From IMG/VR virus record IMGVR_UViG_3300012979_000010, positions 1 through 40,685 of that record: a DNA stretch of 40,685 nt; one strand, 5' to 3'. The position numbers and the translations under genes are program-made. The notes beneath the pieces were generated by a model. That model ran no database searches, was not told the origin of the DNA, and saw only the letters and a list, made by a program, of their open reading frames with translations. Below are positions 1-40,685 of this stretch, in pieces (positions within the stretch are counted from its first letter, which is position 1; each line of letters opens with the position of its first letter). The stretch comes from a virus.

Positions 1-123
1 GATAGGCAGATTGCGCTTGCGAGTGGGTTGAGTGTGCAGTTGGTAAACAAGGCTAAAAACTGCTTTCGTGATAGGTGTAGGTATAGGTGGGGGTTACGGC
101 AGATGTATGAGGAAGTGAGAGAA
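1..123. repeat. Terminal direct repeat, copy 1 (identical to 40563..40685)
   Basis: GATAGGCAGATTGCGCTTGCG...GAGGAAGTGAGAGAA was read base by base at both ends and is identical. Confidence 0.95.
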
Positions 124-132: not shown

Positions 133-187
133 AGTGTTTGGATATATGGTTTACTTTTCGTTCCTTTGTATAAAAATAGGTGGTGCA

Positions 188-1027
188 ATGCAGATTAAAT
201 TTGAAGGACAAGAACATCAGATTGATGCGAATACATTGATAAATGTGCTTATACATTATCAGAATGTAATCAATGAAGTTAATGCGGTTTATGGTGGTGG
301 CTCAAAGCAGATTGTAACCAAAGTCAATGCCATAAAGAAGGGTTCGTTTATTATTGATATATCCATCAAAGAAAGCCTTAAAAATCTGTTTTCACATGAT
401 AATGTAGGTTATATAGCATCGCTTGTAACTATTGTTGGTGGTGTGTTTTCTGCATACAAGACATTAAAGGGAAAACCATCAAAGGATGGGGATTTGGTTA
501 TCAACGATAATCGAGAATATAATAAGACTATTATCAATGTTTATAACAGCAAGGTAGTAAGGGAAGCTATATCTAAATCTATTGAAACGGCAAATGAAGA
601 TGTCAATGTGGAAGGTCTTACTATTGATTGCGAACAAGAGCAAAAAGTATCGTTTGATAAAGAGGAATTTGCAGAATATATATATAATGACTTTGACGAA
701 GAAGATGTATTACCAACAGAAAGACATGAGGATGTTGAAGCCATACTTACTATAATATCTTTGAATTTTGAATCTGGTAGTCAATGGGGATTTATTTATA
801 ATGGCTTTAAGATTAAAATGATTGTAAAGGATGATGCCTTAATGCGTAAGATTGATGAAGGTGCAAGGTTCGGAAAGGGCGATGCTATTAAGGTTAAAAT
901 GCGTATTAAAAAGGTGTACAATCCTACATATAAGACTTACGAAAACAAATCATATAAGATAGTAGAATTTATTGAGCATATAGCAGCTCCACAACAAATG
1001 AAAATGTATGATAGTGGAATTGATTAA
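188..1027 (+). CDS. Hypothetical protein with one central hydrophobic helix (accessory gene)
   Basis: ORF track 134..1027; the preferred ATG is at 188 (MQIKFEGQEHQIDANTL...). Hydrophobic segment YIASLVTIVGGVFSAY. No family recognised. Confidence 0.6.
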   Translation: MQIKFEGQEHQIDANTLINVLIHYQNVINEVNAVYGGGSKQIVTKVNAIKKGSFIIDISIKESLKNLFSHDNVGYIASLVTIVGGVFSAYKTLKGKPSKDGDLVINDNREYNKTIINVYNSKVVREAISKSIETANEDVNVEGLTIDCEQEQKVSFDKEEFAEYIYNDFDEEDVLPTERHEDVEAILTIISLNFESGSQWGFIYNGFKIKMIVKDDALMRKIDEGARFGKGDAIKVKMRIKKVYNPTYKTYENKSYKIVEFIEHIAAPQQMKMYDSGID

Positions 1028-1031
1028 ATCT

Positions 1032-1181
1032 ATGCGAGGATGTTTCCTTCCTAAACCTTTGAAACGGCATGAGGATATTGAATGGATAGGAGCGGAAGAA
1101 GATATTAAGAATATCCGTAATGACATTAGCAATGCTTACAAAGATATAACTACAAGAATCACTTGTATGTTGTTTGATTAA
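1032..1181 (+). CDS. Small hypothetical protein (49 aa)
   Basis: ATG lies 4 nt after the previous stop (MRGCFLPKPLKRHEDIEWIGAEEDIKNIRNDISNAYKDITTRITCMLFD). The terminator at 1188..1214 follows immediately. Below the ORF-track size cut-off. Confidence 0.35.
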   Translation: MRGCFLPKPLKRHEDIEWIGAEEDIKNIRNDISNAYKDITTRITCMLFD

Positions 1182-1187
1182 CACTTT

Positions 1188-1214
1188 GGCGGTACTTCGG
1201 TATCGCCTTTTTTA
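1188..1214 (+). terminator. Rho-independent terminator
   Basis: GGCGGTAC-TTCG-GTATCGCC (8-bp stem with one mismatch, TTCG loop) followed by TTTTTT. Confidence 0.7.
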
Positions 1215-1296: not shown

Positions 1297-1304
1297 TAAT
1301 TTTG
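1297..1304 (+). promoter_or_regulatory. Bacteroides-type -7 promoter box (TAnnTTTG)
   Basis: TAATTTTG matches the Bacteroides sigma-A -7 consensus. It sits directly upstream of the AATCGCA repeat array and about 180 nt before the 1480 CDS. No well-spaced -33 TTTG was seen. Confidence 0.35.
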
Positions 1305-1305
1305 C

Positions 1306-1353
1306 AATCGCATAATCGCACGTAATCGCACGTAAATCGCATTTATAATCGCA
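1306..1353 (+). repeat. Five direct copies of AATCGCA (operator- or iteron-like array)
   Basis: Copies start at 1306, 1314, 1324, 1335 and 1347, spaced 8, 10, 11 and 12 nt: gcAATCGCAtAATCGCAcgtAATCGCAcgtaAATCGCAtttatAATCGCAt. Confidence 0.8.
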
Positions 1354-1479
1354 TAAAATTTATTCTTTCCACGAACTTTCTATGAACTTTCCACAATCTA
1401 TTATAGCATCTATGTACTTAGCTTGATTTTTGTGTCCGCAGAGCAATAGTGCTTTGTGTAACTTAAAACAAAAATCAAA

Positions 1480-2403
1480 ATGAGCGAAAAGACTTATGTT
1501 TTCGATTCGGGAAGTAACAATGTATCGAGTATGCTTCCTGCCCTCTTGCAAAACAGAGGAATTGACCCTGCCTACTTCATGGGTATGATGAACAATGGCG
1601 GTTTTGGCGGTAACTTCGGCATTAACGAGATTATCGCATTGGTGGTAATTGCTGCTATTTTTGGTAACAACAATGGCGGTGGAATCTTTGGTTGTGGCGG
1701 TAACAACAACAATTCCGCAGAACGTGAAATGATTATGCAAACACTGAATCGTAATGGTGTTGATATTAGTCAGCTTGCTTCTTCGTTGAATTGCTCTACC
1801 AACACTATTCAGAATGGTATCAACAACCTTGCAACCCAAATCTGCCAATTAAGCGGACAACAAGGTATGAGCGCACAACACATTATCAATGCCATCCAAG
1901 CTGGTAACTGCTCTTTGAGCCATGCACTTGCTGACTGCTGCTGCAAGACACAACAAATCATTACACAAGGTTTTGCAGACTTAGGCTATGCTACACGTGA
2001 CCAAACTTGTGCGATTGAGAAGTCTATCGAAAGTTCTACATCAAGAATTTTGGAAGGTCAAAGAGCTGCTGAAATGCGTGAGTTGCAACGTGACTTGAAC
2101 CAACGTGACAGAGAGTTGGCGCAAAAGGATGTAATCATCAACAACTACCAACAAACTCAAACATTCGGTGCTATGCTTGCTCCTATCAGCAATGCAATCG
2201 GTAACTTGCAATCGGATGTAGATGGTATCAAGTGCAAGCTGCCCAAGACCGAAACTATTGTGGCTGCTCCTGATTATGTACCTATCAATCGTGGTATCAA
2301 CGTGAACTATGCTGCCGTTCCTACTTGCGGTTATGGTGGCTTCGGTTTCCCTTACAACTATCCGTTTGGTTTTCCTAATGGTAATAACGGCTCATTCTTT
2401 TAA
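1480..2403 (+). CDS. Orphan Gly/Asn/Cys-rich low-complexity protein with one TM helix, a coiled coil and an aromatic-Gly C-terminal tail
   Basis: 307-aa ORF containing NNGGFGGNFG, the TM helix INEIIALVVIAAIFG, GNNNGGGIFGCGGNNNN, a Cys cluster (ADCCCK), the coiled coil RAAEMRELQRDLNQRDRELAQKD and the tail CGYGGFGFPYNYPFGFPNGNNGSFF. Codon choice resembles the capsid gene. Confidence 0.75.
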   Translation: MSEKTYVFDSGSNNVSSMLPALLQNRGIDPAYFMGMMNNGGFGGNFGINEIIALVVIAAIFGNNNGGGIFGCGGNNNNSAEREMIMQTLNRNGVDISQLASSLNCSTNTIQNGINNLATQICQLSGQQGMSAQHIINAIQAGNCSLSHALADCCCKTQQIITQGFADLGYATRDQTCAIEKSIESSTSRILEGQRAAEMRELQRDLNQRDRELAQKDVIINNYQQTQTFGAMLAPISNAIGNLQSDVDGIKCKLPKTETIVAAPDYVPINRGINVNYAAVPTCGYGGFGFPYNYPFGFPNGNNGSFF

Positions 2404-2417
2404 GAAAGGAGGGTATT

Positions 2418-2747
2418 ATGATTAGCAATACCAACAATCCAGTAGCATTACGAAGTATATCGGTGTCGGTTACGGCTACGGAAGTTCAATTCGTATTCCG
2501 TAACTACCCGAACTTCGGGCGACCATACTTTGGTGGACTATATGCCTACCTTGCACAAGCTATCCCAACGGGCACAACGGCTACGCTTCCGATAGTGTTC
2601 ACAAGCGAGGGTGGCAATCCTACACCAGTAGTGGGAATAGATGATATTCCTATCACGGTTGCCGAGATTACAGGTACGGGTGTGTATCATTTGTTCTACG
2701 ACCAAAACGCAGAACGATTGCAGTTGATTGCACCTTATAATGTTTAA
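2418..2747 (+). CDS. Hypothetical beta-rich protein (109 aa)
   Basis: ORF track. A strong AAGGAGG lies 5 nt upstream of the ATG. No family recognised. Confidence 0.7.
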   Translation: MISNTNNPVALRSISVSVTATEVQFVFRNYPNFGRPYFGGLYAYLAQAIPTGTTATLPIVFTSEGGNPTPVVGIDDIPITVAEITGTGVYHLFYDQNAERLQLIAPYNV

Positions 2748-2763
2748 TTAAAAGTTTAACAAA

Positions 2764-3285
2764 ATGTTCAGTTCGTTAAGACAAGGAAGTTTGTTCTATA
2801 TATTAGAGAAATCGGACAAGCCAAAATTGAAGATTGGTAATGTGGTGAGTGTGGGTCAGCCTACACCGAAGTATAACACCTCGTTTGTGCCTAATCAGAA
2901 TCAGTATGAAACTATGGTAGATGTAGTGGTTAAGGTGGGCGATGAGGAGGTGAAATTTGAGAAGCTGCCGAGCAATTTGAGTATCGCTAACTTTGGTCAG
3001 AATGGTGTAGTGGTTAGTGAGAGCAAGGAGGCTATGAACGCTGAGGTGGAAGCTATGTTGCGTATAAGCAATCAAGTGATTGATAGTATTCCTTATCATC
3101 AGAATGTGGTAAGTTCGTGTGATGGTATTCTCAGGGAACTGAATCCACAATTTGCTAAGGAGAAGGAGCAAGAAGAGAAGATTGTTCTGTTGGAGCAAAA
3201 GATGGATGGTATGGATAAGACACTGACTAACATTAGCAAGATGCTTAACGAAGCACTGAATAAATCTAAAAAGAGTGATATATGA
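2764..3285 (+). CDS. Hypothetical protein (173 aa) with a coiled-coil C-terminus
   Basis: ORF track. The C-terminal part KEKEQEEKIVLLEQKMDGMDKTLTNISKMLNEALNK is heptad-like. Confidence 0.7.
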   Translation: MFSSLRQGSLFYILEKSDKPKLKIGNVVSVGQPTPKYNTSFVPNQNQYETMVDVVVKVGDEEVKFEKLPSNLSIANFGQNGVVVSESKEAMNAEVEAMLRISNQVIDSIPYHQNVVSSCDGILRELNPQFAKEKEQEEKIVLLEQKMDGMDKTLTNISKMLNEALNKSKKSDI

Positions 3286-3554
3286 GAGTAATTAAGATTG
3301 AAGAGGGCAAGGTTGACAAGATGAGCGACTATGCCGAGAAGATGCTTAAATATGGTGGTAAATTGATGTCTTGCATTGAAGAGCTATCGGAAGGAGGCTA
3401 TGGTGAGCGTGACGATGATGATGACTGGGATGACGATGATGATGACATGAGTATGCGTGGCGGTTATCGTGAAGGTCGTGGTATGAATCGTGGCGGTTAT
3501 CGTGAGAGTATGGGTATGCGTAGAAACAGCCGAACTGGTCGTTATATGCGCTAA
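3282..3554 (+). CDS. Small bipolar protein: poly-Asp acidic block followed by an RGG-like basic repeat tail
   Basis: ATGA overlap with the upstream gene. Contains ERDDDDDWDDDDDDMSMRGGYREGRGMNRGGYRESMGMRRNSRTGRYMR. Confidence 0.65.
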   Translation: MRVIKIEEGKVDKMSDYAEKMLKYGGKLMSCIEELSEGGYGERDDDDDWDDDDDDMSMRGGYREGRGMNRGGYRESMGMRRNSRTGRYMR

Positions 3555-3601
3555 TGTTTAACTTGGGAGGGCTTCGGCTCTCCCTTTAACTTAAAGAAGA
3601 T

Positions 3602-4024
3602 ATGAAAGTACCTTTGAATATATATGACGATATGCCCAAACCCATGAAGCGATACCTATCGCATTATGGCTGGAACTTCAACAAGGCTGCTTGCGAGTAT
3701 GCAGTAAGTAAGATGTGGAAGGAAGATGCACAAGGCAATAAGAAGAAGATTGAGCAAAAAACGAAGGAGCAAGTATATGAACTATTGCGCAAGCATGGCA
3801 TAGAACTTAAGCACGATGAGTTGTACAATGCTACCTATGCTTGGCACATGGTAATGGCTGATTACTTCGGAGTGAGTGTGGACGATGAGCGACACGCAGC
3901 TTTGAGTGTTAAGGCTATTATTGATGACCCCGACAAACCAGGCGGAAATGTGTTCAGTCATTGGTATTGGGATATGATTGACTTTGGTCATGGTGTAGAT
4001 TTTGACGAGTTCCTTGATGATTAA
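3602..4024 (+). CDS. Hypothetical protein (140 aa)
   Basis: ORF track. No family confidently recognised. Confidence 0.7.
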   Translation: MKVPLNIYDDMPKPMKRYLSHYGWNFNKAACEYAVSKMWKEDAQGNKKKIEQKTKEQVYELLRKHGIELKHDELYNATYAWHMVMADYFGVSVDDERHAALSVKAIIDDPDKPGGNVFSHWYWDMIDFGHGVDFDEFLDD

Positions 4025-4442
4025 GCAACACATAACACTTGACCGCTACGAATGGGATATTGATATATTCTATTCTGTTCACGGGTACTATGTTGATGAG
4101 ATATTGAAACATCTCGTCAGCATAGGTATTCGTGGGAATAGGTTATCAGAAGCGAAGGAAATGCTTGACGAAGGAAAACTGAACACAGGACTTACTTTCG
4201 TTAAGAACGGCAAGGCGGTTTGTGTTATTGGTAAGGCTTCCAGTGCTGCACAATACGCGGATAGTATTCAGCATGAGATTATGCACCTGGCTATCTTCAT
4301 CGCCCAAGCCGAAGAAATACCGCTTGATAGTGAAGAAGTGTGCTACAGCGGTGGAGAGATAGCGCGAAAGATGCACACAAAGAGCAAGCTGCTGACAAGC
4401 GAATGCGGATGTTACACAAAACGAATAGGCAAAGAACTATGA
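4017..4442 (+). CDS. Putative small Zn-metallopeptidase-like protein (HExxH motif)
   Basis: ORF 4002..4442; the preferred ATG at 4017 overlaps the upstream stop. Motif SIQHEIMHLAIF. Evidence is at motif level only. Confidence 0.55.
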   Translation: MIKQHITLDRYEWDIDIFYSVHGYYVDEILKHLVSIGIRGNRLSEAKEMLDEGKLNTGLTFVKNGKAVCVIGKASSAAQYADSIQHEIMHLAIFIAQAEEIPLDSEEVCYSGGEIARKMHTKSKLLTSECGCYTKRIGKEL

Positions 4443-4535
4443 TTGATAGACTTATAGACATAATGGATGATGTTCCTTACCATGATTTCTGCAAGTTGTG
4501 GTTCATTTTCGTGTGGAATGTGTATTGAATTCTTC

Positions 4536-4600: not shown

Positions 4601-4661
4601 ATATGCAATAATATGCCTTAGCGATATGCCATTTTCTTTTATTTATATGCCAAAATATGCC
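4601..4661. repeat. Five direct copies of ATATGCC (first copy ATATGCA); protein-binding array candidate
   Basis: Copies start at 4601, 4611, 4624, 4645 and 4655, spaced 10, 13, 21 and 10 nt, in the non-coding gap downstream of int. Confidence 0.8.
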
Positions 4662-4767: not shown

Positions 4768-5949
4768 TCATCCATTCTTCAAGTTATCAAGTATCGCGCG
4801 GATAGTTTCATCCGCGTGTTTTTTGTTGATTTTCACATAGGAAAAAATAGGTCTGTTACCCTTCATAGATTGCCCGATACAATACTCTATACGTTCAAGC
4901 GAAATGCCAAGTTCAAATCCATGTTGGGCGAATGATTTACGCGCGGTGTAGTATATCACATGAGTTTCAATTCCCAACGATTGCGCCAGGATGCCGATGT
5001 ACTTCGTTATGTACTTGCGCAAATTCTCATACGATAGCTTATACCCGAAATCAATCTTCCCATTTCTGCCCATATACCTTTTAATAATAGGCTTCGCTTC
5101 TTCGGGGATAGTAAAGCACACCTTCTTATCGTTTTTCTTGGTGTTTTTCGACTTCTGCCGCTCATATTCCATCGTTGTTTTCCCCTTGAAATTGTACGAA
5201 AGCAAATCAACCATGTTAATGCCGCCAAGATAATATGATAGCATAAACGCATCACGCGCCACAACAAGAGCCTTTGCTTTTGGATCTGAATCGCGGATAA
5301 GCCTTACTTCCTCTACTGATATATCAAGTTCGCGCACTGGAATGGTCGGTTTTTCGTAGTATGCAAAAGGGTGTGTGTCATATTTAACCATGTTGTCGCG
5401 GATTGCCTGGTTTATGACCGCCTTAAGATGCGCCATGTGCGTTCCTCGCGTGGAAGGATTGAGCGAAAGCGCACGCATCATGTATATGTCGAAGTCTTTA
5501 ATTGTTCTTGGGGTAATGCCGTCAAGCATGATATCGTGCTTGCAGAATTCAATAAAATACTTCGATGTCCTGGCATATAGTTGTGCGGTAGATTTCCGAC
5601 CTTCACGGATAAGTGTATCTATGTAATCGTCCGAAGCAAGCGAGTAGGAGGTGGAACCGCTCTTAATGGTGTGCAGATATTCGATAAGCTGCTTGCATGA
5701 GTATGCATGGGTGTTAATCTTATCAAGTGCTTCCTGGTACGAATTAAGAATTGAGCGCAGTTTCATATTTATATAAGGTGCGTTAGGCACATTGACTATC
5801 TGCCCTTGTTGAAGGTCATCGGGGTTGTCAAGCTCAAAGCGAGTTACGATGTATCGCGTTTGTTGGCGATGTCCTACTGCAATTCTGATTTTGTGTTTCC
5901 CAGCCTTGTTGATTTTGGCTGGAACGATGGCAATTCTTAAAGTTGTCAT
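4768..5949 (-). CDS. int: Tyrosine recombinase / phage integrase (Bacteroidetes type with an N-terminal arm-binding domain)
   Basis: 393 aa. The N-terminus MTTLRIAIVPAKINKAGKHKIRIAVGHRQQTRYIVT is typical of Bacteroidetes integrases. It has a SAM-like core-binding region, and the C-terminal catalytic region contains ...ARKSFAQHGFELGISLERIEYCIGQSM.... It lies next to a tRNA-derived attP. Confidence 0.9.
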   Translation of the reverse strand: MTTLRIAIVPAKINKAGKHKIRIAVGHRQQTRYIVTRFELDNPDDLQQGQIVNVPNAPYINMKLRSILNSYQEALDKINTHAYSCKQLIEYLHTIKSGSTSYSLASDDYIDTLIREGRKSTAQLYARTSKYFIEFCKHDIMLDGITPRTIKDFDIYMMRALSLNPSTRGTHMAHLKAVINQAIRDNMVKYDTHPFAYYEKPTIPVRELDISVEEVRLIRDSDPKAKALVVARDAFMLSYYLGGINMVDLLSYNFKGKTTMEYERQKSKNTKKNDKKVCFTIPEEAKPIIKRYMGRNGKIDFGYKLSYENLRKYITKYIGILAQSLGIETHVIYYTARKSFAQHGFELGISLERIEYCIGQSMKGNRPIFSYVKINKKHADETIRAILDNLKNG

Positions 5950-6482: not shown

Positions 6483-7043
6483 TTAGAATCCTTCGCTAAA
6501 GTTATTACTTGTTTTTGCTCTTTCGCTTATGACTTTATATTGTCCTTCGATTATCTTTCCCATTTTATCATTTTTGAATTCCTTATCAATCGCTTCAAGT
6601 GAAGTTTCAACTCTTATCTTTTTGACACCTTGTGAAATTTTAGCGATTTGTTCTTCGGTAATAGAATATATCGGGAATATGGTGTATTGAGAAATAACAC
6701 TTGAGCCTACAATCTTACTATTCCCTATTTCATCTGATTGCTCATTTATAGTTTTTAATTCTATAATCGAATCGTCACTCATCTTTATAAGTAATCGTGA
6801 ACCTTTATTTATTGTTATAGGATATAATTGTTTAATCGTTAGTGATAATTGCCATTCTACACGTTTATTGATTTCAGTACGGCTTAATGCACATTCAAAT
6901 ATTACTTTGTCAGAGAAGCTTCGCATACTTTCAGAAGCACACATTATCAACCTTGTGTTTTCATCTGATTTATCAAGGTTGATTTCTTGCGCATTGGCGC
7001 ACATGGCTACCATTGCGAATAAAAATAAAGCTATTCTTTTCAT
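6483..7043 (-). CDS. Exported protein or lipoprotein of unknown function (prophage cargo; superinfection-exclusion candidate)
   Basis: N-terminal signal peptide MKRIALFLFAMVAMCANAQ. Lies 25 nt downstream of the repressor gene on the same strand. Confidence 0.7.
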   Translation of the reverse strand: MKRIALFLFAMVAMCANAQEINLDKSDENTRLIMCASESMRSFSDKVIFECALSRTEINKRVEWQLSLTIKQLYPITINKGSRLLIKMSDDSIIELKTINEQSDEIGNSKIVGSSVISQYTIFPIYSITEEQIAKISQGVKKIRVETSLEAIDKEFKNDKMGKIIEGQYKVISERAKTSNNFSEGF

Positions 7044-7068: not shown

Positions 7069-7716
7069 TTACTTTGCAGATAGGCACATTAATACTTTAT
7101 ACATTGAATATATATCATCGTAGAATATGTCGAAATCGTCATAATCGGGGTTGATAGAGTGGCAAGTTATCCTATCATCGTGAATGCTCTTGCGCACGTT
7201 CTTAATTACTACACCATTGCAAGTGTCAAGAACGTATGTTTTCCCCCATTCAATAAATGAGTGGTGGTTTATCCTCTTTATTAGAATTCGGCTTCCATTA
7301 GGATATTCGGGTGTCATTGATTCGCCATATACGGTTATAGCGAAATCTACATTTTCTATTGGCGAAATAACTGCTTCACAATTTTGCAATGTTGTACCAT
7401 TTGCAGAAAATCCATCAAGGCTCCCACCTAAAGCTGATTGTGGTAGTAGATATGTAGTGTATATGCCAAGTTCCTTCAATTCCTCTTTGTTCCCTATATC
7501 TTCAAACATATCCCCTTCGCCAGTCATCAACCACGATGTTTTCACTTCGGGATATGCGTTCTTAATAATCTTGCAAAGGTCGGTACTGATGTTGTTTCTG
7601 CCGTTTAATACGTTCAGAATTCTTGTTTCTCTTTTAAGACCTATTGAACGTGCAAAGCTTGTTGGACTTTCAGCCAAATGCTCTAATAATTGCGATAGCC
7701 AGTGTACATATTTCAT
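7069..7716 (-). CDS. cI/LexA-like phage repressor with a C-terminal S24 autopeptidase domain
   Basis: The C-terminal half has VYGESMTPEYPNGSRILIKRIN...GKTYVLDTCNGVVIKNVRK, i.e. the S24 G(D/E)SM serine motif plus a downstream Lys. The N-terminal part is of HTH size. It is divergent from the early operon. Confidence 0.8.
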   Translation of the reverse strand: MKYVHWLSQLLEHLAESPTSFARSIGLKRETRILNVLNGRNNISTDLCKIIKNAYPEVKTSWLMTGEGDMFEDIGNKEELKELGIYTTYLLPQSALGGSLDGFSANGTTLQNCEAVISPIENVDFAITVYGESMTPEYPNGSRILIKRINHHSFIEWGKTYVLDTCNGVVIKNVRKSIHDDRITCHSINPDYDDFDIFYDDIYSMYKVLMCLSAK

Positions 7717-9428: not shown

Positions 9429-9503
9429 CAACCAATTAGCGAATTGGGGTGTAGAATTAATGTTAGATGTTTAAGAGCATTACATTTTGGATGTATTATT
9501 TTC

Positions 9504-9533
9504 CCACCTCGCTTGTGAAAGTAGGGTGGTTTT
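9504..9533 (+). terminator. Sibling terminator hairpin 4 (carries a compensatory change)
   Basis: TTTCCCACCT-cgcttgtgaaagta-GGGTGG-TTTTCAA. The G:C pair of copies 2 and 3 is replaced by A:T. Confidence 0.6.
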
Positions 9534-9557
9534 CAAGGAACTTAAAAACAACAAGAT

Positions 9558-9758
9558 ATGAACCCATTTAAGAAGAAACAACAACAAGAAAAGAAGTACT
9601 ACTTGATAATACAATTTCAAGTAATCTACAAGGATGGTTCGCGCGACATCGTGAAGCTGAATGCTCCGATAGAGGTGGACAACGTGAACGATTTCCGCAT
9701 GAAGAAGAAAGCGGAATATCAATGTGAAGGTGTAAACTTAACGTATTACGAAGTATGA
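9558..9758 (+). CDS. Hypothetical protein (66 aa) with a Lys-rich N-terminus
   Basis: ORF track. Its stop overlaps the next start. Confidence 0.6.
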   Translation: MNPFKKKQQQEKKYYLIIQFQVIYKDGSRDIVKLNAPIEVDNVNDFRMKKKAEYQCEGVNLTYYEV

Positions 9759-9955: not shown

Positions 9956-10311
9956 TAAGAGATTTATCGCCACAAGAATTGCGCGTAGCCAATGAATTCT
10001 GCAAAGGTCTTACAGACAACGAGGTGGGCGATAATCTGTTTCTCTCGCCTTGTACGGTACGCGCACACAAGTATCGGATATATCAGAAGCTAGGCATTAA
10101 CAAGGAAGTGGAATTGTTCTACTACATGATCTGCCGCAAGCTAAACGTAAAGTTCGATATTAAAGAGATACACAAGAAAGGTTTATCGTTGTTCTTCTCG
10201 GTGTTGTTCCTATTCATGCAGATTACTTGCGTAGATATGGATATGCGCCAAACAAGGACACCGAGAGTGACACGCACAACAATGGTAAGAGGAAGGAGAG
10301 CGAAGGAATGA
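9952..10311 (+). CDS. LuxR/GerE-family HTH transcriptional regulator with a hydrophobic C-terminal segment
   Basis: LSPQELRVANEFCKGLTDNEVGDNLFLSPCTVRAHKYRIYQKLGI fits the GerE-type HTH. It is followed by GLSLFFSVLFLFMQITCV. Confidence 0.7.
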   Translation: MIRDLSPQELRVANEFCKGLTDNEVGDNLFLSPCTVRAHKYRIYQKLGINKEVELFYYMICRKLNVKFDIKEIHKKGLSLFFSVLFLFMQITCVDMDMRQTRTPRVTRTTMVRGRRAKE

Positions 10312-10538
10312 TACCAGGAAAGGAAAAGGAAGCACTTGATGCCATTTTATTGGCAATGGATGGAAGAACATTCGGTCAGCGCGAATCGGCTTCCATTGTT
10401 AGCGGCTTGAAGCGACTGATAGTTCTGATGGAACAAGGTAAAATTAGAGCCGAAAAGCGAATTAACAAGCAAAACGGCAAGTGGTATTGCAATGCCGCCG
10501 ATGTATTGCGATATGCGAAGAACCCATTTATAAATTAA
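10308..10538 (+). CDS. Hypothetical protein (76 aa)
   Basis: ORF track 10227..10538. The preferred ATG at 10308 overlaps the upstream TGA (ATGA). Confidence 0.55.
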   Translation: MIPGKEKEALDAILLAMDGRTFGQRESASIVSGLKRLIVLMEQGKIRAEKRINKQNGKWYCNAADVLRYAKNPFIN

Positions 10539-10544
10539 AGAGAT

Positions 10545-11129
10545 ATGAAAGAATTAGTAGAAATTCAAAGCAAATTGAAAGCACCGAAGGATAATTACAA
10601 TAGCTTCGGGAAGTACAAGTATCGTAGTGCAGAAAGCATTCTTGAAAGTGTAAAACCACTATTAAAGGAGTATGGCTGCATCCTAACGGTTAGTGATGAC
10701 ATTGTAATGGTAGGCGATAGAATCTACGTGAAGGCTACGGCTACAATCAGCAACGAGAAAGGCGAATACATCACTACTTCGGCATTCGCAAGAGAAGCGG
10801 AAGTCGGGAAGAATGGCATGGATGTATCGCAAGTAACTGGAGCAACATCAAGCTATGCACGCAAGTATGCGCTAAATGGTTTGTTCTGTATTGATGACAC
10901 GAAGGACACCGATACGGAAGAATACCAAGCGCAGAAGAAGAAGGCAGAGAAGCCGAAAGCTAACGAAAAGAGCGACACTTTGCTGATGGCATTGCAAGAG
11001 GTTGAAACGGCATCGTCCATAGAACAATTACTTGCTATTCGCAATGCTTATTTCAATTTGATGTCGCCTAACGAGCAAACAGAATTCACGAATAAACTAA
11101 CCGAACGTAAAAAGAAGATACAAGGATGA
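10545..11129 (+). CDS. erf: ERF-family single-strand annealing recombinase
   Basis: LKAPKDNYNSFGKYKYRSAESILESVKPLLKEYG...GATSSYARKYALNGLF is characteristic of ERF-superfamily proteins. Confidence 0.75.
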   Translation: MKELVEIQSKLKAPKDNYNSFGKYKYRSAESILESVKPLLKEYGCILTVSDDIVMVGDRIYVKATATISNEKGEYITTSAFAREAEVGKNGMDVSQVTGATSSYARKYALNGLFCIDDTKDTDTEEYQAQKKKAEKPKANEKSDTLLMALQEVETASSIEQLLAIRNAYFNLMSPNEQTEFTNKLTERKKKIQG

Positions 11130-18634: not shown

Positions 18635-18988
18635 ATGAAACCAAAGAAAGAAATAATTGAAAGATTAATTAAGTCGGGTGTTATGGGTAGGCTGAACGAA
18701 TTGCTATCAGCGGCACATATGTTACAATGCGTGGCGAGTAATTTGCATGGCGAAGCAGAAGATCTAATGCGAGAATATGGTTTGCACTTGGGCGATATCA
18801 AGAGAGCGCATTCTGCATATGTTAAGGCTTCGGATAATTACTTCAAGTTGTTTGCATCGCTAATAACAACGAAAGAATCAACGAATGATATGTTTGCAGA
18901 TATTGAAGCTTACGAAAGGGGATTTCGCGAGTGGGCGAAGATTCCTCAAGGTTGGCAACCAAGAATAACTAACGAAACAGAAGAATGA
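18635..18988 (+). CDS. Hypothetical protein (117 aa)
   Basis: ORF track, with AAGGAGG upstream. Confidence 0.65.
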   Translation: MKPKKEIIERLIKSGVMGRLNELLSAAHMLQCVASNLHGEAEDLMREYGLHLGDIKRAHSAYVKASDNYFKLFASLITTKESTNDMFADIEAYERGFREWAKIPQGWQPRITNETEE

Positions 18989-30870: not shown

Positions 30871-31941
30871 ATGACTATTTTAGAAAGTGTAGCAAACTTG
30901 ACAAAAGACAATGGCGCAATCAAGAATTTGCGCGACCTTTTGGTGATGACTAACTTCACAGACGAAGTATTGGAGAACTTCTTCACATTCCGCCAACGTG
31001 TGCAGAATGGAGAGAAGCTCGGTTGGATTGGCGAGATGGATGAAATCGGTTGGAAAGGTGCTGGTTGTAAGCCAGACTACGTTAAACCGAACATCGCAGC
31101 CGCAGAAAAGGAATGGAGCATTGGCGATTGGGAAGCTCCTCTTGAATGGTGCTACAAAGAATTCGAGAACACCGTTGCCGAATACGCATTGAAGGCTGGC
31201 ACAGATATTGGCGACTTGACATCAACCGACATCATGGATGTGGTTATCTATCCAGCATTGCAAGATGCTATCCGCAAGATGATGTGGCGCATCATTTGGT
31301 TTGGCGATGAAAACGCAGCCAATATTGGTGATGGTGGTGTAATTACCGCTGGAATGGATGTTGATTTGTTCAAGCCTACTGATGGTGTATGGAAGAAGTT
31401 GTTTGCAGTTGCAACTGCTAATGCAACACAACGTGTAACAATCGAAGCCAACGAAGAAGCTACATATGCCGCTCAAATGAGCAAGATTAAGGAACCAGGT
31501 GTTGCAATCGGTATCTTTGATGCATTGCTTGAAAATGCAGACCCACGCATTGCCACTATGGAAGGTGCAGGCTTGTTCGTAACCAAGTCATTGGCTGATG
31601 CATTGACAAAGGACTTGAAGCGCGAGTACAAGGAAATCTTGACTTGGGAACAAATCTTCGATGGTGTGAAGGTTGCTTCTTACAATGGTACTAAAGTTTA
31701 TTCAATCTCTATTTGGGATAGAATGATCCAAAAGTACCAAAACAATGGCACTGCATTGAATCTTCCTCATCGTGCATTCTTTGGTTCAGCAAAGAACATC
31801 TTCGTAGGTTCGCCAGCTAACGAGGTTATTTCTGACCTTGAAATTTGGTTCAACCAAGACGAGAGAACAACAAGAGCATACACTGCTGGTAAGCTTGGCA
31901 CATTGCTCGGTGAAGATAACCTATTCCAAATCGCTTATTAA
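30871..31941 (+). CDS. Major capsid protein
   Basis: 356 aa directly after the protease-scaffold gene, with a strong AAGGAGGA upstream and biased codon use. Confidence 0.7.
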   Translation: MTILESVANLTKDNGAIKNLRDLLVMTNFTDEVLENFFTFRQRVQNGEKLGWIGEMDEIGWKGAGCKPDYVKPNIAAAEKEWSIGDWEAPLEWCYKEFENTVAEYALKAGTDIGDLTSTDIMDVVIYPALQDAIRKMMWRIIWFGDENAANIGDGGVITAGMDVDLFKPTDGVWKKLFAVATANATQRVTIEANEEATYAAQMSKIKEPGVAIGIFDALLENADPRIATMEGAGLFVTKSLADALTKDLKREYKEILTWEQIFDGVKVASYNGTKVYSISIWDRMIQKYQNNGTALNLPHRAFFGSAKNIFVGSPANEVISDLEIWFNQDERTTRAYTAGKLGTLLGEDNLFQIAY

Positions 31942-38851: not shown

Positions 38852-39316
38852 ATGGAGAAATCATTAGTAACGCAGACAATTAACGGGACTTTCGGGGCAA
38901 CAATGAGTGTGTTTTTTGCGGAGAGCATAGTACATATGTTGCCGTGGCTTGCAGTTAGTTTTGCCGTGATTGTGTGTGATTTAGTTGTGGGAATAAGGAA
39001 GTCTTTGTTGATGGATGAAGAAGTAAGGTTTAGTAGTGCCATACGAAGAACTATGGGAAAAATGCTAACTTACTTTTCTTTTTGCGTTATGGTGGCTATG
39101 ATAGATGTTGCTGCTCATGGTGGTGGCACGATAGATAAGTATGCTTGTTTGTTGGTGTGCTTTGTTGAGGGAACATCCATAGTTAGCAATATATTAAAGC
39201 CGAAGGGTTTTGACATTAACGTGATTAAGATGATAGCACTTGGCATATCAAAGTTTGCTAAGGTAGATAAGAAGGATATTGAAGAAATAATAGAAAAGGA
39301 AGATGAAAAGCATTAA
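38852..39316 (+). CDS. Holin
   Basis: 154 aa with several TM helices (MLPWLAVSFAVIVCDLVVGI; LTYFSFCVMVAMIDV; LLVCFVEGTSIV). Overlaps the endolysin start. Confidence 0.65.
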   Translation: MEKSLVTQTINGTFGATMSVFFAESIVHMLPWLAVSFAVIVCDLVVGIRKSLLMDEEVRFSSAIRRTMGKMLTYFSFCVMVAMIDVAAHGGGTIDKYACLLVCFVEGTSIVSNILKPKGFDINVIKMIALGISKFAKVDKKDIEEIIEKEDEKH

Positions 39317-39749
39317 AGATTATTTCGCTATACATGAGCTTGTGTGTCCTCATGTGTACAATCGTTTCGGGGAAGCTGCTTGGGATTTTCTTGATAGGGA
39401 TTTGCTTGATGTGTTACTCTTTATCAGAGAGCATCTGAATAGACCTATCTACATTAACAACTGGAAGTGGGGTGGTGATAAGTCACAACGTGGGTTGAGG
39501 TGTTGTATCTGCCCATTGGTTAAGGAAAAGACCTACTTAGAGAAGCCTTATTTGTCGGCTCACATCTTCGGTAAGGGTGTTGATTTTCATGTTCAAGGGA
39601 TGAGTGCAGAGGAAGTGCGCAAGTGGATTGCTGATTATCAAGTCTATTTGCCTTGTAAGATTAGATGCGAGGAGTTGGTAAATTGGGTGCACATTGATGT
39701 CCTACCATACGGCATGAGTGCTAACAAAATAACCTACTTTAAGGGGTAG
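39303..39749 (+). CDS. Endolysin, peptidase M15 (VanY / L-Ala-D-Glu peptidase-like)
   Basis: Zn-ligand pattern SAHIFGKGVDFHV ... WVHIDV (H-x6-D ... H). Confidence 0.7.
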   Translation: MKSIKDYFAIHELVCPHVYNRFGEAAWDFLDRDLLDVLLFIREHLNRPIYINNWKWGGDKSQRGLRCCICPLVKEKTYLEKPYLSAHIFGKGVDFHVQGMSAEEVRKWIADYQVYLPCKIRCEELVNWVHIDVLPYGMSANKITYFKG

Positions 39750-39821: not shown

Positions 39822-40265
39822 ATGTACGAAGATGATAATTTTGATAGAGATTACTTTAAGATGCTAATCACGATGATTGCTACTTTGTTTTTGTCGGGTG
39901 TGCTATTGATTGGAATATTATGCTCGTGTACAAGTGTGCGGTATGTTCCTGTGGAGAGTGTTAAGAGGGATAGTATCTACATCAACAAGTTGCAAGTGGA
40001 TAGCATCTATATGCAGGATAGTGTGTACATCAAGGAGAAGGGCGATACTATCTATATGTACAAGTATAAGTACTTGGATAGGTACAAGTTGCTGACCGAT
40101 ACGATGTATGTGTGCAAGACTGACACAATCAATAATGTGGTAGAGGTTGAGAAGCCTTTGACAAAGTGGCAGAAAATCAAGTTGGATTTAGGCGGTTTCG
40201 CCTTTGGTGGCATTGTAGTTTTGATAATTGGTGTTATATTTGCATTGGTAAAACGTAAGTGGTAG
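39822..40265 (+). CDS. Unimolecular spanin candidate (N-terminal lipoprotein signal plus C-terminal TM anchor)
   Basis: MLITMIATLFLSGVLLIGILCSC (lipobox-like) and C-terminal LGGFAFGGIVVLIIGVIFALVKRKW. It is the last gene of the lysis cassette. Confidence 0.5.
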   Translation: MYEDDNFDRDYFKMLITMIATLFLSGVLLIGILCSCTSVRYVPVESVKRDSIYINKLQVDSIYMQDSVYIKEKGDTIYMYKYKYLDRYKLLTDTMYVCKTDTINNVVEVEKPLTKWQKIKLDLGGFAFGGIVVLIIGVIFALVKRKW

Positions 40266-40415: not shown

Positions 40416-40685
40416 ATGGGAGAAAGAGATTTTTTTGAAAAGGTTATAGAAATCGTTTCTAACGTGTCGGGATTGGAAAGGAGTGCAATTCTACATTGCA
40501 ACAGAGAGGAATGCGTAGATGCGAGGTATGTGCTTGTGGCGGTGCTTGCGGAGCAATTAAGCGATAGGCAGATTGCGCTTGCGAGTGGGTTGAGTGTGCA
40601 GTTGGTAAACAAGGCTAAAAACTGCTTTCGTGATAGGTGTAGGTATAGGTGGGGGTTACGGCAGATGTATGAGGAAGTGAGAGAA
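40416..40685 (+). CDS. Small DnaA domain-IV-like helix-turn-helix protein; 5' part runs off the window and is completed by 1..132 (92 aa in total)
   Basis: ATG at 40416 opens MGERDFFEKVIEIVSNVSGLERSAILHCNREECVDARYVLVAVLAEQLSDRQIALASGLSVQLVNKAKNCF.... The pattern resembles the DnaA C-terminal DNA-binding domain (R..i..aR.iamyL...l...S...IG). It is absent from the ORF track because no stop occurs before the window end. Confidence 0.6.
   Translation, partial: MGERDFFEKVIEIVSNVSGLERSAILHCNREECVDARYVLVAVLAEQLSDRQIALASGLSVQLVNKAKNCFRDRCRYRWGLRQMYEEVRE
40563..40685. repeat. Terminal direct repeat, copy 2 (identical to 1..123)
   Basis: Same 123 nt as 1..123. This is the signature of a circular assembly or of DTR ends. 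Confidence 0.95.

What the first reader, a model, noticed from the sequence alone, without database searches (positions are those of the whole stretch)
1480..4528. Six-gene orphan operon between the lysis cassette and attP: candidate lysogenic-conversion, defence or unrecognised virion system
None of the six co-directional, tightly packed ORFs (307, 109, 173, 90, 140 and 141-146 aa) resembles any phage core function I can name. They occupy the classical moron position beside attP and have their own promoter-like region. Two features nevertheless look like highly expressed structural genes. The first ORF uses capsid-like codons, and a strong AAGGAGG precedes the second, as it does the capsid gene. 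The encoded proteins are compositionally extreme: a Gly/Asn/Cys-rich membrane protein, a small beta-rich protein, a coiled-coil protein, a poly-Asp/RGG bipolar protein and an HExxH protein. Coupling by ATGA overlaps at 3282, 4017 and 4439 suggests a stoichiometric complex. This is the largest block of wholly unexplained coding sequence in the genome.
Basis: inference. Interest (0 to 1): 0.65.

Follow-up and report, generated by a model that had tools for sequence, protein, structure and literature searches.

The report
Conserved late-gene module of Bacteroidales phages
The six "orphan" genes are real, but they belong to a conserved seven-to-eight-gene module of unknown function that hundreds of gut Bacteroidales phages, including crAss-like ones, carry next to their lysis genes.

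Summary
All six ORFs exist as described. A conserved 29-aa seventh ORF (4439-4528) and an upstream DnaA-domain-IV-like HTH gene that spans the circular-assembly junction also belong to the unit. The block is not orphan. The order O1-O2-O3-O4-O5-O6(-O7) recurs in 85 fetched phage loci from contigs of 22-175 kb. These include Crassvirales, stop-codon-recoded phages and integrated prophages. A lysis-type gene lies within 4 kb upstream in 54 of 80 loci. Conserved regulatory anatomy was found: a Bacteroides-type -7 promoter box before O1, a Shine-Dalgarno site before O2, and a GC-rich hairpin between O4 and O5 in every distinct locus tested. O1 is a Cys-rich coiled-coil protein with one hydrophobic segment. 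O5 is DUF7841. O6 is a minimal HExxH zincin. O2, O3, O4 and O7 match nothing of known function. Lysogenic conversion and defence are poorly supported. The cassette has the GC content of the rest of the genome, occurs in Crassvirales, which are described as incapable of lysogeny, carries recoded stops typical of late genes, and has no significant PADLOC match. The real moron is the low-GC LAPAL/PDC-S42 gene at 134-1027. My best inference, at low confidence, is a late, membrane-anchored complex that acts on the host envelope alongside lysis. A virion-borne role is not excluded.

The parts
40416..40685 (+). DnaA-domain-IV-like HTH gene (92 aa). It continues at 124-132 because 1-123 repeats 40563-40685 in this circular assembly. 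In relatives it is the first gene of the module.
   Evidence: 123-nt terminal repeat. The junction ORF matches the family HMM at E 6e-20. The family lies about 65 nt upstream of O1 in 40-42 loci. Relatives hit Pfam Bac_DnaA_C below the cutoff.
1188..1207 (+). Terminator-like hairpin that closes the inserted LAPAL unit. It is the upstream boundary of the cassette transcript.
   Evidence: 8-bp stem with 5 GC pairs, followed by TTTTTT.
1297..1304 (+). TAATTTTG, a match to the Bacteroides -7 promoter box TAnnTTTG and the candidate cassette promoter.
   Evidence: The same motif lies within 120 nt upstream of O1 in 49 of 68 distinct loci against 6.8 expected. The consensus itself comes from my own knowledge.
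1306..1399 (+). Two repeat sets in the leader: TAATCGCA(C/T) x5 (1306-1354) and CTTTCCACGAACT-like x3 at 11-nt spacing (1365-1399; DnaA-box-like TTTCCACA). Possible operator sites.
   Evidence: The operator role is inference only.
1480..2403 (+). O1. An N-terminal conserved helical hairpin is followed by a Gly-flanked hydrophobic segment (about 49-65) and a tri-helical HTH-like region (79-125). Then come a long helix (132-253) with an invariant CCC (153-155) and a Gly/aromatic tail.
   Evidence: phrog_16490, E 2e-31. 5875 or more clusters. Invariant residues. Hydrophobic 17-mer in 63 of 63 distinct sequences. AF2 gives secondary structure only, pLDDT 47.
2406..2412 (+). AAGGAGG Shine-Dalgarno site before O2.
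   Evidence: An SD core of 5 nt or more precedes O2 in 64% of 36 distinct loci, against 0-7% for the other cassette genes.
2418..2747 (+). O2, a small protein whose sequence looks all-beta (no structure model was made), with the motif QAIPTGTTxTLP.
   Evidence: phrog_31654, E 1.6e-17. Found in 82 of 86 sources. Alignment A5. No PDB match.
2764..3285 (+). O3, an N-terminal six-stranded beta domain followed by two long helices.
   Evidence: phrog_28898, E 5e-38. 1043 clusters. AF2 pLDDT 83. No PDB fold match at E<0.08. BFVD returns only uncharacterised phage proteins.
3282..3554 (+). O4, a low-complexity acidic and Arg/Gly/Tyr-rich protein coupled to O3 by an ATGA overlap.
   Evidence: Recovered by iterative HMM in 66 of 86 sources.
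3565..3584 (+). GC-rich hairpin (GGGAGGGC-TTCG-GCTCTCCC) between O4 and O5. It is a conserved terminator, attenuator or stabiliser that splits the operon.
   Evidence: A hairpin is present in 38 of 38 distinct O4-O5 gaps, with stem sequences that differ between lineages. In fixed 60-nt windows the median z is -4.7 at this junction and about 0 at the other four.
3602..4024 (+). O5, a DUF7841 protein.
   Evidence: Pfam PF25223, 73.2 bits against a cutoff of 25.2. Found in 74 of 86 sources. No PDB match.
4017..4442 (+). O6, a minimal zincin-like metallopeptidase (141 aa) with a Cys-rich C-terminus.
   Evidence: Invariant W13, H86, E87 and H90, near-invariant E106, across 86 representatives. Weak per-sequence hits to Peptidase_M78 (18 of 86), SprT-like (13), DUF6782 (6) and MPTase-PolyVal (2).
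4439..4528 (+). O7, a conserved 29-aa micro-protein (..DILLEQADD..FCRLL.V..WN).
   Evidence: 18 distinct sequences in 29 loci. It is retained even where morons separate it from O6.

Best explanation
What it is (well supported): a conserved, horizontally shared late-gene module of phages of gut Bacteroidales. Its full form is HTH gene, O1, O2, O3, O4, hairpin, O5, O6, O7. In the window a low-GC moron (the LAPAL gene with its own terminator) has been inserted between the HTH gene and O1. The module has its own host-type promoter directly before O1. O1-O4 appear to be made in excess: O1 has capsid-like codon usage and O2 has a conserved Shine-Dalgarno site. The conserved hairpin after O4 would reduce read-through into O5-O7, which encode a DUF7841 protein, a small zincin metallopeptidase and a micro-protein. 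How it most likely works (inferred, low confidence): O1 inserts its single hydrophobic segment into the cytoplasmic membrane and oligomerises through its long Cys-rich helix. It recruits the abundant soluble partners O2-O4 into a stoichiometric membrane-bound assembly, and the zincin O6, possibly with O5 and O7, processes or regulates that assembly in catalytic amounts. The assembly acts on the host envelope at the end of the lytic cycle, together with the holin-endolysin-spanin cassette it travels with. Its role would be control or completion of lysis and release.
For: Collinear cassette in 85 loci plus the window: O1 in 86 of 86, O2 in 82, O3 in 75, O4 in 66, O5 in 74, O6 in 71 and O7 in 29, always in the same order, with 57 complete through O6. 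It is present in Crassvirales records and in an isolated B. uniformis phage and in integrated prophages next to int. MAG hits are mainly Bacteroidales. A lysis-type gene lies within 4 kb upstream on the same strand in 54 of 80 loci. The window has holin, endolysin and a u-spanin-like gene directly upstream. Late class: O1, O2 and O5 carry in-frame TAG at Gln positions or TGA at Trp positions in recoded phages. Such codons mark structural and lysis genes (10.1101/2021.08.26.457843). Promoter motif in 49 of 68 loci against 6.8 expected. SD before O2 in 64% of loci. Hairpin in 38 of 38 gaps and specific to the O4/O5 junction. O1 codon score. Only O1 has a hydrophobic segment, and O2-O6 have none. 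Spread across unrelated phage types within one host order fits a host-envelope-directed function (inference).
Against: No protein has a homologue of known function, so the mechanism rests on context and architecture. O1 topology is undetermined, because flanking charges are balanced, and its AF2 model is poor. A complete holin/endolysin/u-spanin set already exists upstream, so canonical lysis needs nothing more. In C3_41T2LP the cassette sits among recombination genes, not lysis genes, and 26 of 80 loci show no recognised lysis gene within 4 kb. Capsid-like codon usage, a capsid-like SD and homing-endonuclease insertions fit virion proteins equally well.
Confidence: 0.35

Rival explanations
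1. Virion-borne entry system. O1 would be a pilot or ejection protein carried in the particle, and its Gly-rich hydrophobic segment would insert into the host membrane during DNA delivery. O2-O4 would be co-packaged partners. O5 and O6 would be co-injected effectors or a processing protease, possibly with an anti-defence role.
For: O1 has a Gly-flanked hydrophobic segment followed by a long Gln/Asn-rich helix. Weak matches run from the fusion peptide of influenza C HEF2 and to coronavirus S2 HR1, and GenBank annotates its homologues as 'spike' or 'fiber'. The module is in the late class, with capsid-like codons and SD. Homing endonucleases are inserted in the cassette. O6 has weak affinity to MPTase-PolyVal, a domain of proteins thought to be delivered with DNA (PMC5512222). 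In cr116_1 the cassette lies between terS and the capsid genes. The resemblance to phiX174 protein H and the P1 dar operon is from memory only.
Against: No detectable homology to any known ejection, pilot or internal virion protein. The cassette is shared by phages of very different size and type and is missing from most Crassvirales records searched, which is unusual for an essential virion part. It usually follows lysis genes rather than head or tail genes.
Confidence: 0.25
2. Accessory virion ornament. O1 and O3 would form coiled-coil fibres and O2 an abundant decoration or head-fibre knob. O5-O7 would be low-level assembly factors, including a maturation protease.
For: The O2 SD is shared with the presumed capsid gene and conserved. 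O1 has capsid-like codons. The hairpin separates abundant from scarce products. The distribution is accessory, as is usual for decoration proteins (my own knowledge).
Against: A conserved membrane-like hydrophobic segment in O1 is unexpected for a fibre. O3 shows no similarity to known decoration or fibre folds. One ornament would need to fit capsids ranging from 40 to 175 kb genomes.
Confidence: 0.12
3. One reading: a prophage-expressed lysogenic-conversion, superinfection-exclusion or anti-phage defence cassette in the moron position.
For: It lies next to attP/int here and in other prophages. It has a host-type promoter of its own and an upstream terminator. It includes a membrane protein. 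Defence-like or toxin-antitoxin-like genes insert at the O6/O7 junction in relatives.
Against: It is present in Crassvirales, described as incapable of lysogeny in the abstract of PMC8375218. It has in-frame recoded stops typical of late genes. Its GC content equals the genome's, unlike the true low-GC morons at 134-1027 and 6483-7043. There is no significant PADLOC hit. Strict collinearity across hundreds of phages is unlike moron mosaicism.
Confidence: 0.08

Closest known systems
Accessory genes of phage lysis cassettes (spanins Rz/Rz1 and T1 gp11; antiholins and lysis regulators such as T4 RI/RIII, P1 LydB, P2 LysA-C)
   Same: Late genes that sit with holin and endolysin. They are membrane-anchored, often coiled-coil and Cys-containing proteins, specific to the host envelope, and exchanged between unrelated phages.
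   Different: No sequence or fold similarity. There are seven to eight genes rather than one to three. The O1 hydrophobic segment starts at residue 46-57, not at the N-terminus. The cassette has no lipoprotein partner, and a separate u-spanin-like gene already exists. It includes a zincin peptidase and a DUF7841 protein, and it has its own promoter and an internal attenuator.
Virion-packaged pilot/ejection and co-injected proteins (phiX174 H, podovirus ejection proteins, P1 dar operon, polyvalent proteins with MPTase-PolyVal)
   Same: O1 has a Gly-rich hydrophobic segment plus a long coiled coil. The unit is a late multi-gene operon, and a small zincin is related at noise level to MPTase-PolyVal.
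   Different: No detectable homology. The proteins are stand-alone rather than one polyvalent polypeptide. The distribution is independent of virion type. No proteomic evidence exists.
ImmA/IrrE (Peptidase_M78) and SprT-like minimal zincins
   Same: O6 has an invariant HExxH and a near-invariant downstream Glu, a size of about 140 aa, and weak hits from 18 and 13 of 86 family members.
   Different: No member reaches a Pfam gathering score. O6 sits in a late operon, not beside a repressor. It has an extra conserved Trp13 and a C-terminal Cys cluster.

Membership tests
Spanin (two-component or unimolecular) | Inner-membrane subunit with an N-terminal TMD and a periplasmic coiled coil, paired with an outer-membrane lipoprotein gene (embedded, overlapping or adjacent). 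Alternatively, one protein with an N-terminal lipobox and a C-terminal TMD. | tested here: not met
   The O1 hydrophobic segment begins at residue 46-57. No O2-O7 protein has a hydrophobic or lipobox N-terminus. A separate protein with a lipobox-like LCSC and a C-terminal TMD lies at 39822-40265, and its relatives occur upstream in about 36 loci.
Anti-phage defence systems (PADLOC-DB 2.0) | Significant match of cassette proteins to a defence-system model. | tested here: not met
   O2-O6 have no hits. O1 has only E>=0.002 hits to HTH or MotA-like parts of models. By contrast, the neighbouring LAPAL gene hits PDC-S42 at 1e-30.
Moron / lysogenic-conversion gene | Deviant base composition, its own promoter and terminator, patchy presence among close relatives, and restriction to temperate phages. 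| tested here: not met
   Cassette GC is 0.40-0.46, matching the genome. It is collinear in 57 loci. It is present in Crassvirales. Only the own-promoter criterion is met.
Ribosome hibernation factor HPF/RaiA (name given by JGI to three O3 homologues) | Score above the TIGR00741 cutoff and a beta-alpha-beta-beta-beta-alpha fold. | tested here: not met
   18.9 bits against a cutoff of 40.9. The AF2 model (pLDDT 83) has six strands followed by two long helices, and no HPF structure appears among the PDB fold matches.
Zincin metallopeptidase (O6) | HExxH motif with a third zinc ligand downstream, conserved across the family. | tested here: met
   H86, E87 and H90 are invariant and E106 is conserved in 90% or more of 86 representatives that are at most 50% identical to each other. 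Catalytic activity was not tested.
Peptidase_M78 / SprT-like / MPTase-PolyVal (specific families for O6) | Pfam score above the gathering threshold. | tested here: inconclusive
   Only sub-threshold hits: 18, 13 and 2 of 86 members, best E 2e-4, 7e-5 and 0.06. The window protein itself has no hit. The profile finds no PDB relative.
Polyvalent protein (Iyer et al. 2017) | Two to 15 effector domains in a single polypeptide. | tested here: not met
   O6 and 397 representative relatives are stand-alone proteins of about 130-150 aa. Definition taken from the abstract of PMC5512222.
Pfam DUF7841 (O5) | Score above the gathering threshold of PF25223. | tested here: met
   73.2 bits against 25.2. Homologues in L003, L125 and L126 carry the same family. 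The family has no known function.
Helix-turn-helix DNA-binding domain (O1 residues 79-125) | Significant match to an HTH model, a tri-helical fold, and DNA binding. | tested here: inconclusive
   Many sub-threshold hits fall on the same region (HTH_11 at 4e-4, HTH_36, HTH_8, DeoR, Csa3, CasR), but only in a minority of homologues. AF2 helices at 79-91, 96-102 and 107-125 have low confidence.

The most novel reading that the evidence does not exclude
The module is a previously undescribed eight-gene machine specific to phages of gut Bacteroidales. It would be a membrane-anchored assembly with its own regulator, its own promoter, a built-in stoichiometry control (the hairpin) and a dedicated protease. 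It would perform a step of the lytic cycle at the Bacteroidales envelope, on exit or entry, that has no counterpart in model phages.
Probability: 0.3. Interest if true: 0.8.

Novelty: new variant of a known kind. Interest (0 to 1): 0.6.

Why it matters
Bacteroidales phages, crAss-like ones included, dominate the human gut virome, and most of their genes are unexplained. This cassette is one of the larger conserved blocks of such dark matter. O1 relatives form thousands of protein clusters, and the gene order and three regulatory elements are conserved across unrelated phage lineages. Its linkage to the lysis genes and its restriction to one host order suggest something specific about how phages cross or break the Bacteroidales envelope. 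That bears on phage therapy, on engineering gut phages and on explaining the unusual infection dynamics of these phages. It can be tested directly, because an isolated phage-host pair (Bacteroides phage C3_41T2LP on B. uniformis MB20-41) and common prophages carry it. The work also corrects annotation: 'spike protein/glycoprotein', 'outer capsid protein/viral fiber' and 'RaiA' labels on family members rest on coiled-coil or sub-threshold similarity.

Tried and rejected
1. HPF/RaiA identity of O3: there is a weak TIGR00741 hit and JGI uses the name, but the AF2 model lacks the fold and Foldseek finds no PDB relative.
2. Fold assignment of O3 against viral structures returned only uncharacterised phage proteins.
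3. AF2 of O1 with a 66-sequence alignment gave pLDDT 47, so no fold search was attempted.
4. Sequence and profile searches of the PDB for O1, O2, O3, O5 and O6 found nothing significant. Hits to TALE repeats, HEF2 and S2 HR1 reflect one short motif or coiled coil.
5. Pfam, NCBIfam, PHROGs and PADLOC gave only unknown-function PHROGs, DUF7841 and sub-threshold noise such as Baculo_PEP_C in 28 of 66 O1 homologues.
6. O1 as a spanin was rejected (see the membership test).
7. O1 topology could not be read from the positive-inside rule, because charges are balanced on both sides.
8. Nucleotide search of phage genomes found almost nothing, so relatives had to be found at protein level.
9. Literature searches for DUF7841, C3_41T2LP and cassette descriptions found no paper on this module.
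10. Rfam and tRNA scans of the region found nothing.
11. The 380-aa genes that follow the cassette in cr116_1 and C3_41T2LP are unrelated to each other.
Full report
**Observation**

The six ORFs are present exactly as listed: 1480-2403, 2418-2747, 2764-3285, 3282-3554, 3602-4024 and 4002/4017-4442, all on the + strand. The O3/O4 and O6/next-ORF junctions are true ATGA overlaps. At 4017 the ATG precedes the O5 stop by 8 nt, so the genes overlap but not in the ATGA manner. All listed O6 homologues are about 141 aa, which fixes the start at 4017. AAGGAGG (2406-2412) precedes O2. Of 41 window genes, only O2, the gene at 30871 and the gene at 18635 have a full AGGAGG. In a simple log-likelihood comparison, O1 is the only gene other than 30871-31941 whose codon usage favours the table of that gene (+0.049). 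Gene 30871 is called the capsid gene only because it follows the prohead protease. It has no named family.

**Genome context**

The window carries an exact 123-nt terminal repeat, so it is a circular assembly of 40,562 unique bases. Reading across the junction gives this order:
- holin, 38852-39316 (Phage_holin_4_1);
- endolysin, 39303-39749;
- a u-spanin-like protein, 39822-40265, with a lipobox-like LCSC and a C-terminal TMD;
- a 92-aa HTH gene, 40416 to 132;
- a LAPAL-family gene, 134-1027;
- a 57-aa ORF;
- a terminator-like hairpin, 1188-1207;
- the cassette;
- a repeat-rich non-coding stretch;
- the tyrosine integrase, 4768-5949(-).

**The block is not orphan**

- O1 has at least 5875 related protein clusters, O3 has 1043, and O6 has 397 representative clusters at 50% identity. 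None carries an informative name.
- tblastn finds O1 and O3 together in Crassvirales records and in the isolated Bacteroides uniformis phage C3_41T2LP. There the same series of genes follows in the same order.
- I fetched 80 IMG/VR loci, out of 517 or more confirmed matches, and used iterative HMMs built in the sandbox. O1 was found in 86 of 86 sources, O2 in 82, O3 in 75, O4 in 66, O5 in 74, O6 in 71 and a 29-32-aa O7 in 29.
- The order was always O1-O2-O3-O4-O5-O6(-O7). Fifty-seven sources were complete through O6, and most of the rest were cut by contig ends.
- Contigs range from 22 to 175 kb.
- Even an O6 relative of 29% identity sits in the same cassette at the end of a prophage. A very common prophage shows lysis genes, HTH, cassette, integrase, then bacterial genes.
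- MAG hits are mainly Bacteroidales.

**Extra members and insertions**

- A roughly 98-aa DnaA-domain-IV-like HTH gene lies about 65 nt upstream of O1 in 40-42 loci.
- The window has this gene too, split by the assembly junction.
- In the window it is separated from O1 by the LAPAL gene. That gene has GC 0.32 against 0.40-0.46 for the cassette. It matches NCBIfam LAPAL at 3.6e-55 and PADLOC candidate PDC-S42 at 1e-30, and it has its own terminator. This insertion is the moron of the region.
- Elsewhere, homing endonucleases are inserted between O1 and O2 or between O5 and O6. Toxin-antitoxin-like or defence-like pairs are inserted between O6 and O7, and O7 is retained in those cases.

**Regulatory anatomy conserved across the family**

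1. The Bacteroides -7 promoter box TAnnTTTG (consensus from my own knowledge) lies on the coding strand within 120 nt upstream of O1 in 49 of 68 distinct loci, against 6.8 expected. It is not enriched before O2 or O3. The window copy is at 1297-1304.
2. A Shine-Dalgarno core of 5 nt or more precedes O2 in 64% of distinct loci, against 0-7% for the other genes.
3. The O4-O5 gap (median 52 nt) contains a GC-rich hairpin in 38 of 38 distinct loci. The stem sequences differ between lineages. In fixed 60-nt windows the median z-score is -4.7 at this junction and about 0 at the other four. About half of the hairpins are followed by a T-run.

The operon therefore has two parts. O1-O4 are upstream of an attenuator or terminator, and O5-O7 are downstream. 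This fits abundant and scarce products respectively.

**Timing**

- In contigs of 154-175 kb, O1 is interrupted by TAG at positions where relatives have Gln.
- In contigs of 38-133 kb, it is interrupted by TGA at positions where relatives have Trp.
- O2 and O5 are fragmented in several of the same loci.
- Borges et al. [quoted passage not shown]
- I infer that the cassette belongs to the late class in those phages.

**The proteins**

- O1 always has one hydrophobic 17-mer starting at residue 46-57, flanked by Gly-rich stretches. It has 7 or more Cys, including an invariant CCC, and a long predicted helix (132-253). AF2 confidence is poor and topology cannot be decided. Two weak motifs are noted but not claimed: a single TALE-repeat-like hairpin (14-47) and an HTH-like tri-helix (79-125).
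- O2 is a small protein whose sequence suggests an all-beta fold (no structure model was made). It has no relative in the PDB.
- O3 folds confidently (pLDDT 83) into a six-stranded domain plus two long helices. It matches no solved fold, which disposes of the 'RaiA' label.
- O4 is low-complexity, acidic and Arg/Gly/Tyr-rich.
- O5 is DUF7841.
- O6 has an invariant W13 and HExxH and a near-invariant E106. Its relatives touch Peptidase_M78, SprT-like and MPTase-PolyVal only below threshold, so it is a minimal zincin of an unassigned family.
- None of O2-O7 has a hydrophobic segment.

**Linkage to lysis**

A holin, endolysin or u-spanin-like gene lies within 4 kb upstream on the same strand in 54 of 80 loci that have enough upstream sequence. 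I estimate, without having computed it, that a randomly placed gene in a 50-100 kb genome would show this only a few percent of the time. The holin family is the same in 52 loci, while the endolysin family varies.

**Interpretation**

- The lysogenic-conversion and defence reading is poorly supported. The cassette occurs in Crassvirales, described as incapable of lysogeny in the abstract of PMC8375218. It carries late-type recoded stops, has genome-typical GC and strict collinearity, and has no PADLOC match.
- What can be said with confidence is that this is a conserved late module with its own promoter and internal stoichiometry control.
- On function I commit, at about 0.35, to a membrane-anchored O1-O4 assembly that acts on the Bacteroidales envelope together with the lysis cassette, with O6 as a low-abundance protease.
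- The main rival, at about 0.25, is a virion-borne membrane-inserting entry system. An accessory virion ornament (0.12) and a prophage-expressed exclusion or defence function (0.08) follow.
- The capsid-like codon usage, the capsid-like SD and the homing-endonuclease insertions do not separate the first three options. Virion proteomics and a deletion mutant would.

**Novelty**

I found no paper describing the module. All candidate functions are known kinds of phage activity, so I rate it a new variant of a known kind. I give roughly 0.3 probability that it is a new kind of machine.

Noticed in passing
window 1-123 and 40563-40685: An exact 123-nt direct terminal repeat shows that the window is a circular assembly of 40,562 unique bases. 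ORFs that cross the junction are invisible to linear ORF listing.
   Followed up: yes
window 134-1207: A low-GC (0.32) LAPAL-family gene matches NCBIfam 'putative phage structural protein' at 3.6e-55 and also PADLOC defence candidate PDC-S42 at 1e-30. With a 57-aa ORF and its own terminator, it is inserted between the HTH gene and O1. It is the likeliest moron or defence candidate of the region, and its two database labels conflict.
   Followed up: partly
window 6483-7043 (-): A second low-GC (0.32) gene encodes a 186-aa protein with an N-terminal signal peptide (MKRIALFLFAMVAMCANAQ). It lies between the integrase and the CI-like repressor (7069-7716) and has no family match. It is a candidate lysogenic-conversion gene.
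   Followed up: no
window 39822-40265: A 147-aa protein has a lipobox-like LCSC after an N-terminal hydrophobic stretch and a C-terminal TMD, which is the unimolecular-spanin architecture. Relatives lie upstream of the cassette in about 36 loci.
   Followed up: partly
window 1306-1399: Five TAATCGCA(C/T) repeats are followed by three CTTTCCACGAACT-like repeats at 11-nt spacing. The third contains TTTCCACA, 7 of 8 matches to the DnaA-box core TATCCACA, which is intriguing given the DnaA-domain-IV-like HTH gene upstream. They may be operator sites.
   Followed up: no
window 1519-1620 (O1 residues 14-47): This stretch resembles a single TALE repeat (MLPALLQNRGIDPAYFMGMMNNGGF against LLPVLCQxHGLTPxQVVAIASNGGG). 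It produces inflated PDB hits to TAL effectors and is probably chance or a convergent helical hairpin.
   Followed up: partly
window 2406-2412, before 30871 and before 18635: A full AGGAGG Shine-Dalgarno site occurs before only three genes of this Bacteroidales phage: O2, the presumed capsid gene and an unknown 117-aa gene. Bacteroidota hosts generally do not use SD-led initiation (my own knowledge), so this may mark a distinct translational class.
   Followed up: partly
L015, L016, L029 (O1 at about 9989-10984); L021, L026, L032, L056: Cassette-bearing phages use alternative genetic codes. TAG is read as Gln in contigs of 154-175 kb, and TGA is read as Trp in contigs of 38-133 kb. In-frame recoded stops occur in O1, O2 and O5.
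   Followed up: yes
L030 13257-14269, L062 7546-8558; L025 13130-14384, L036 13347-14601: The O6/O7 junction is an insertion hot spot in relatives. One insert is a SocA/Panacea-like protein plus a TM protein. Another is a 301-aa ATPase-like protein plus a 112-aa STAS-like protein. These assignments were made by eye from the sequences.
   Followed up: no
L037 about 9475-9634 and the same place in L039, L041, L044, L069-L076: A long inverted repeat of about 110 nt (GCCAATCAAACTT...AAGTTTGATTGGC enclosing ACAAAAGCATGC...GCATGCTTTTGT) lies upstream of the HTH gene in one subgroup of loci, with apparent compensatory changes. It could be a structured RNA or a regulatory site.
   Followed up: no
window 4601-4661: Repeated ATATGCC(A) motifs and several A/T-rich inverted repeats lie between O7 and the integrase. 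They are plausible integrase arm-type sites of attP. No tRNA gene occurs in the window.
   Followed up: partly
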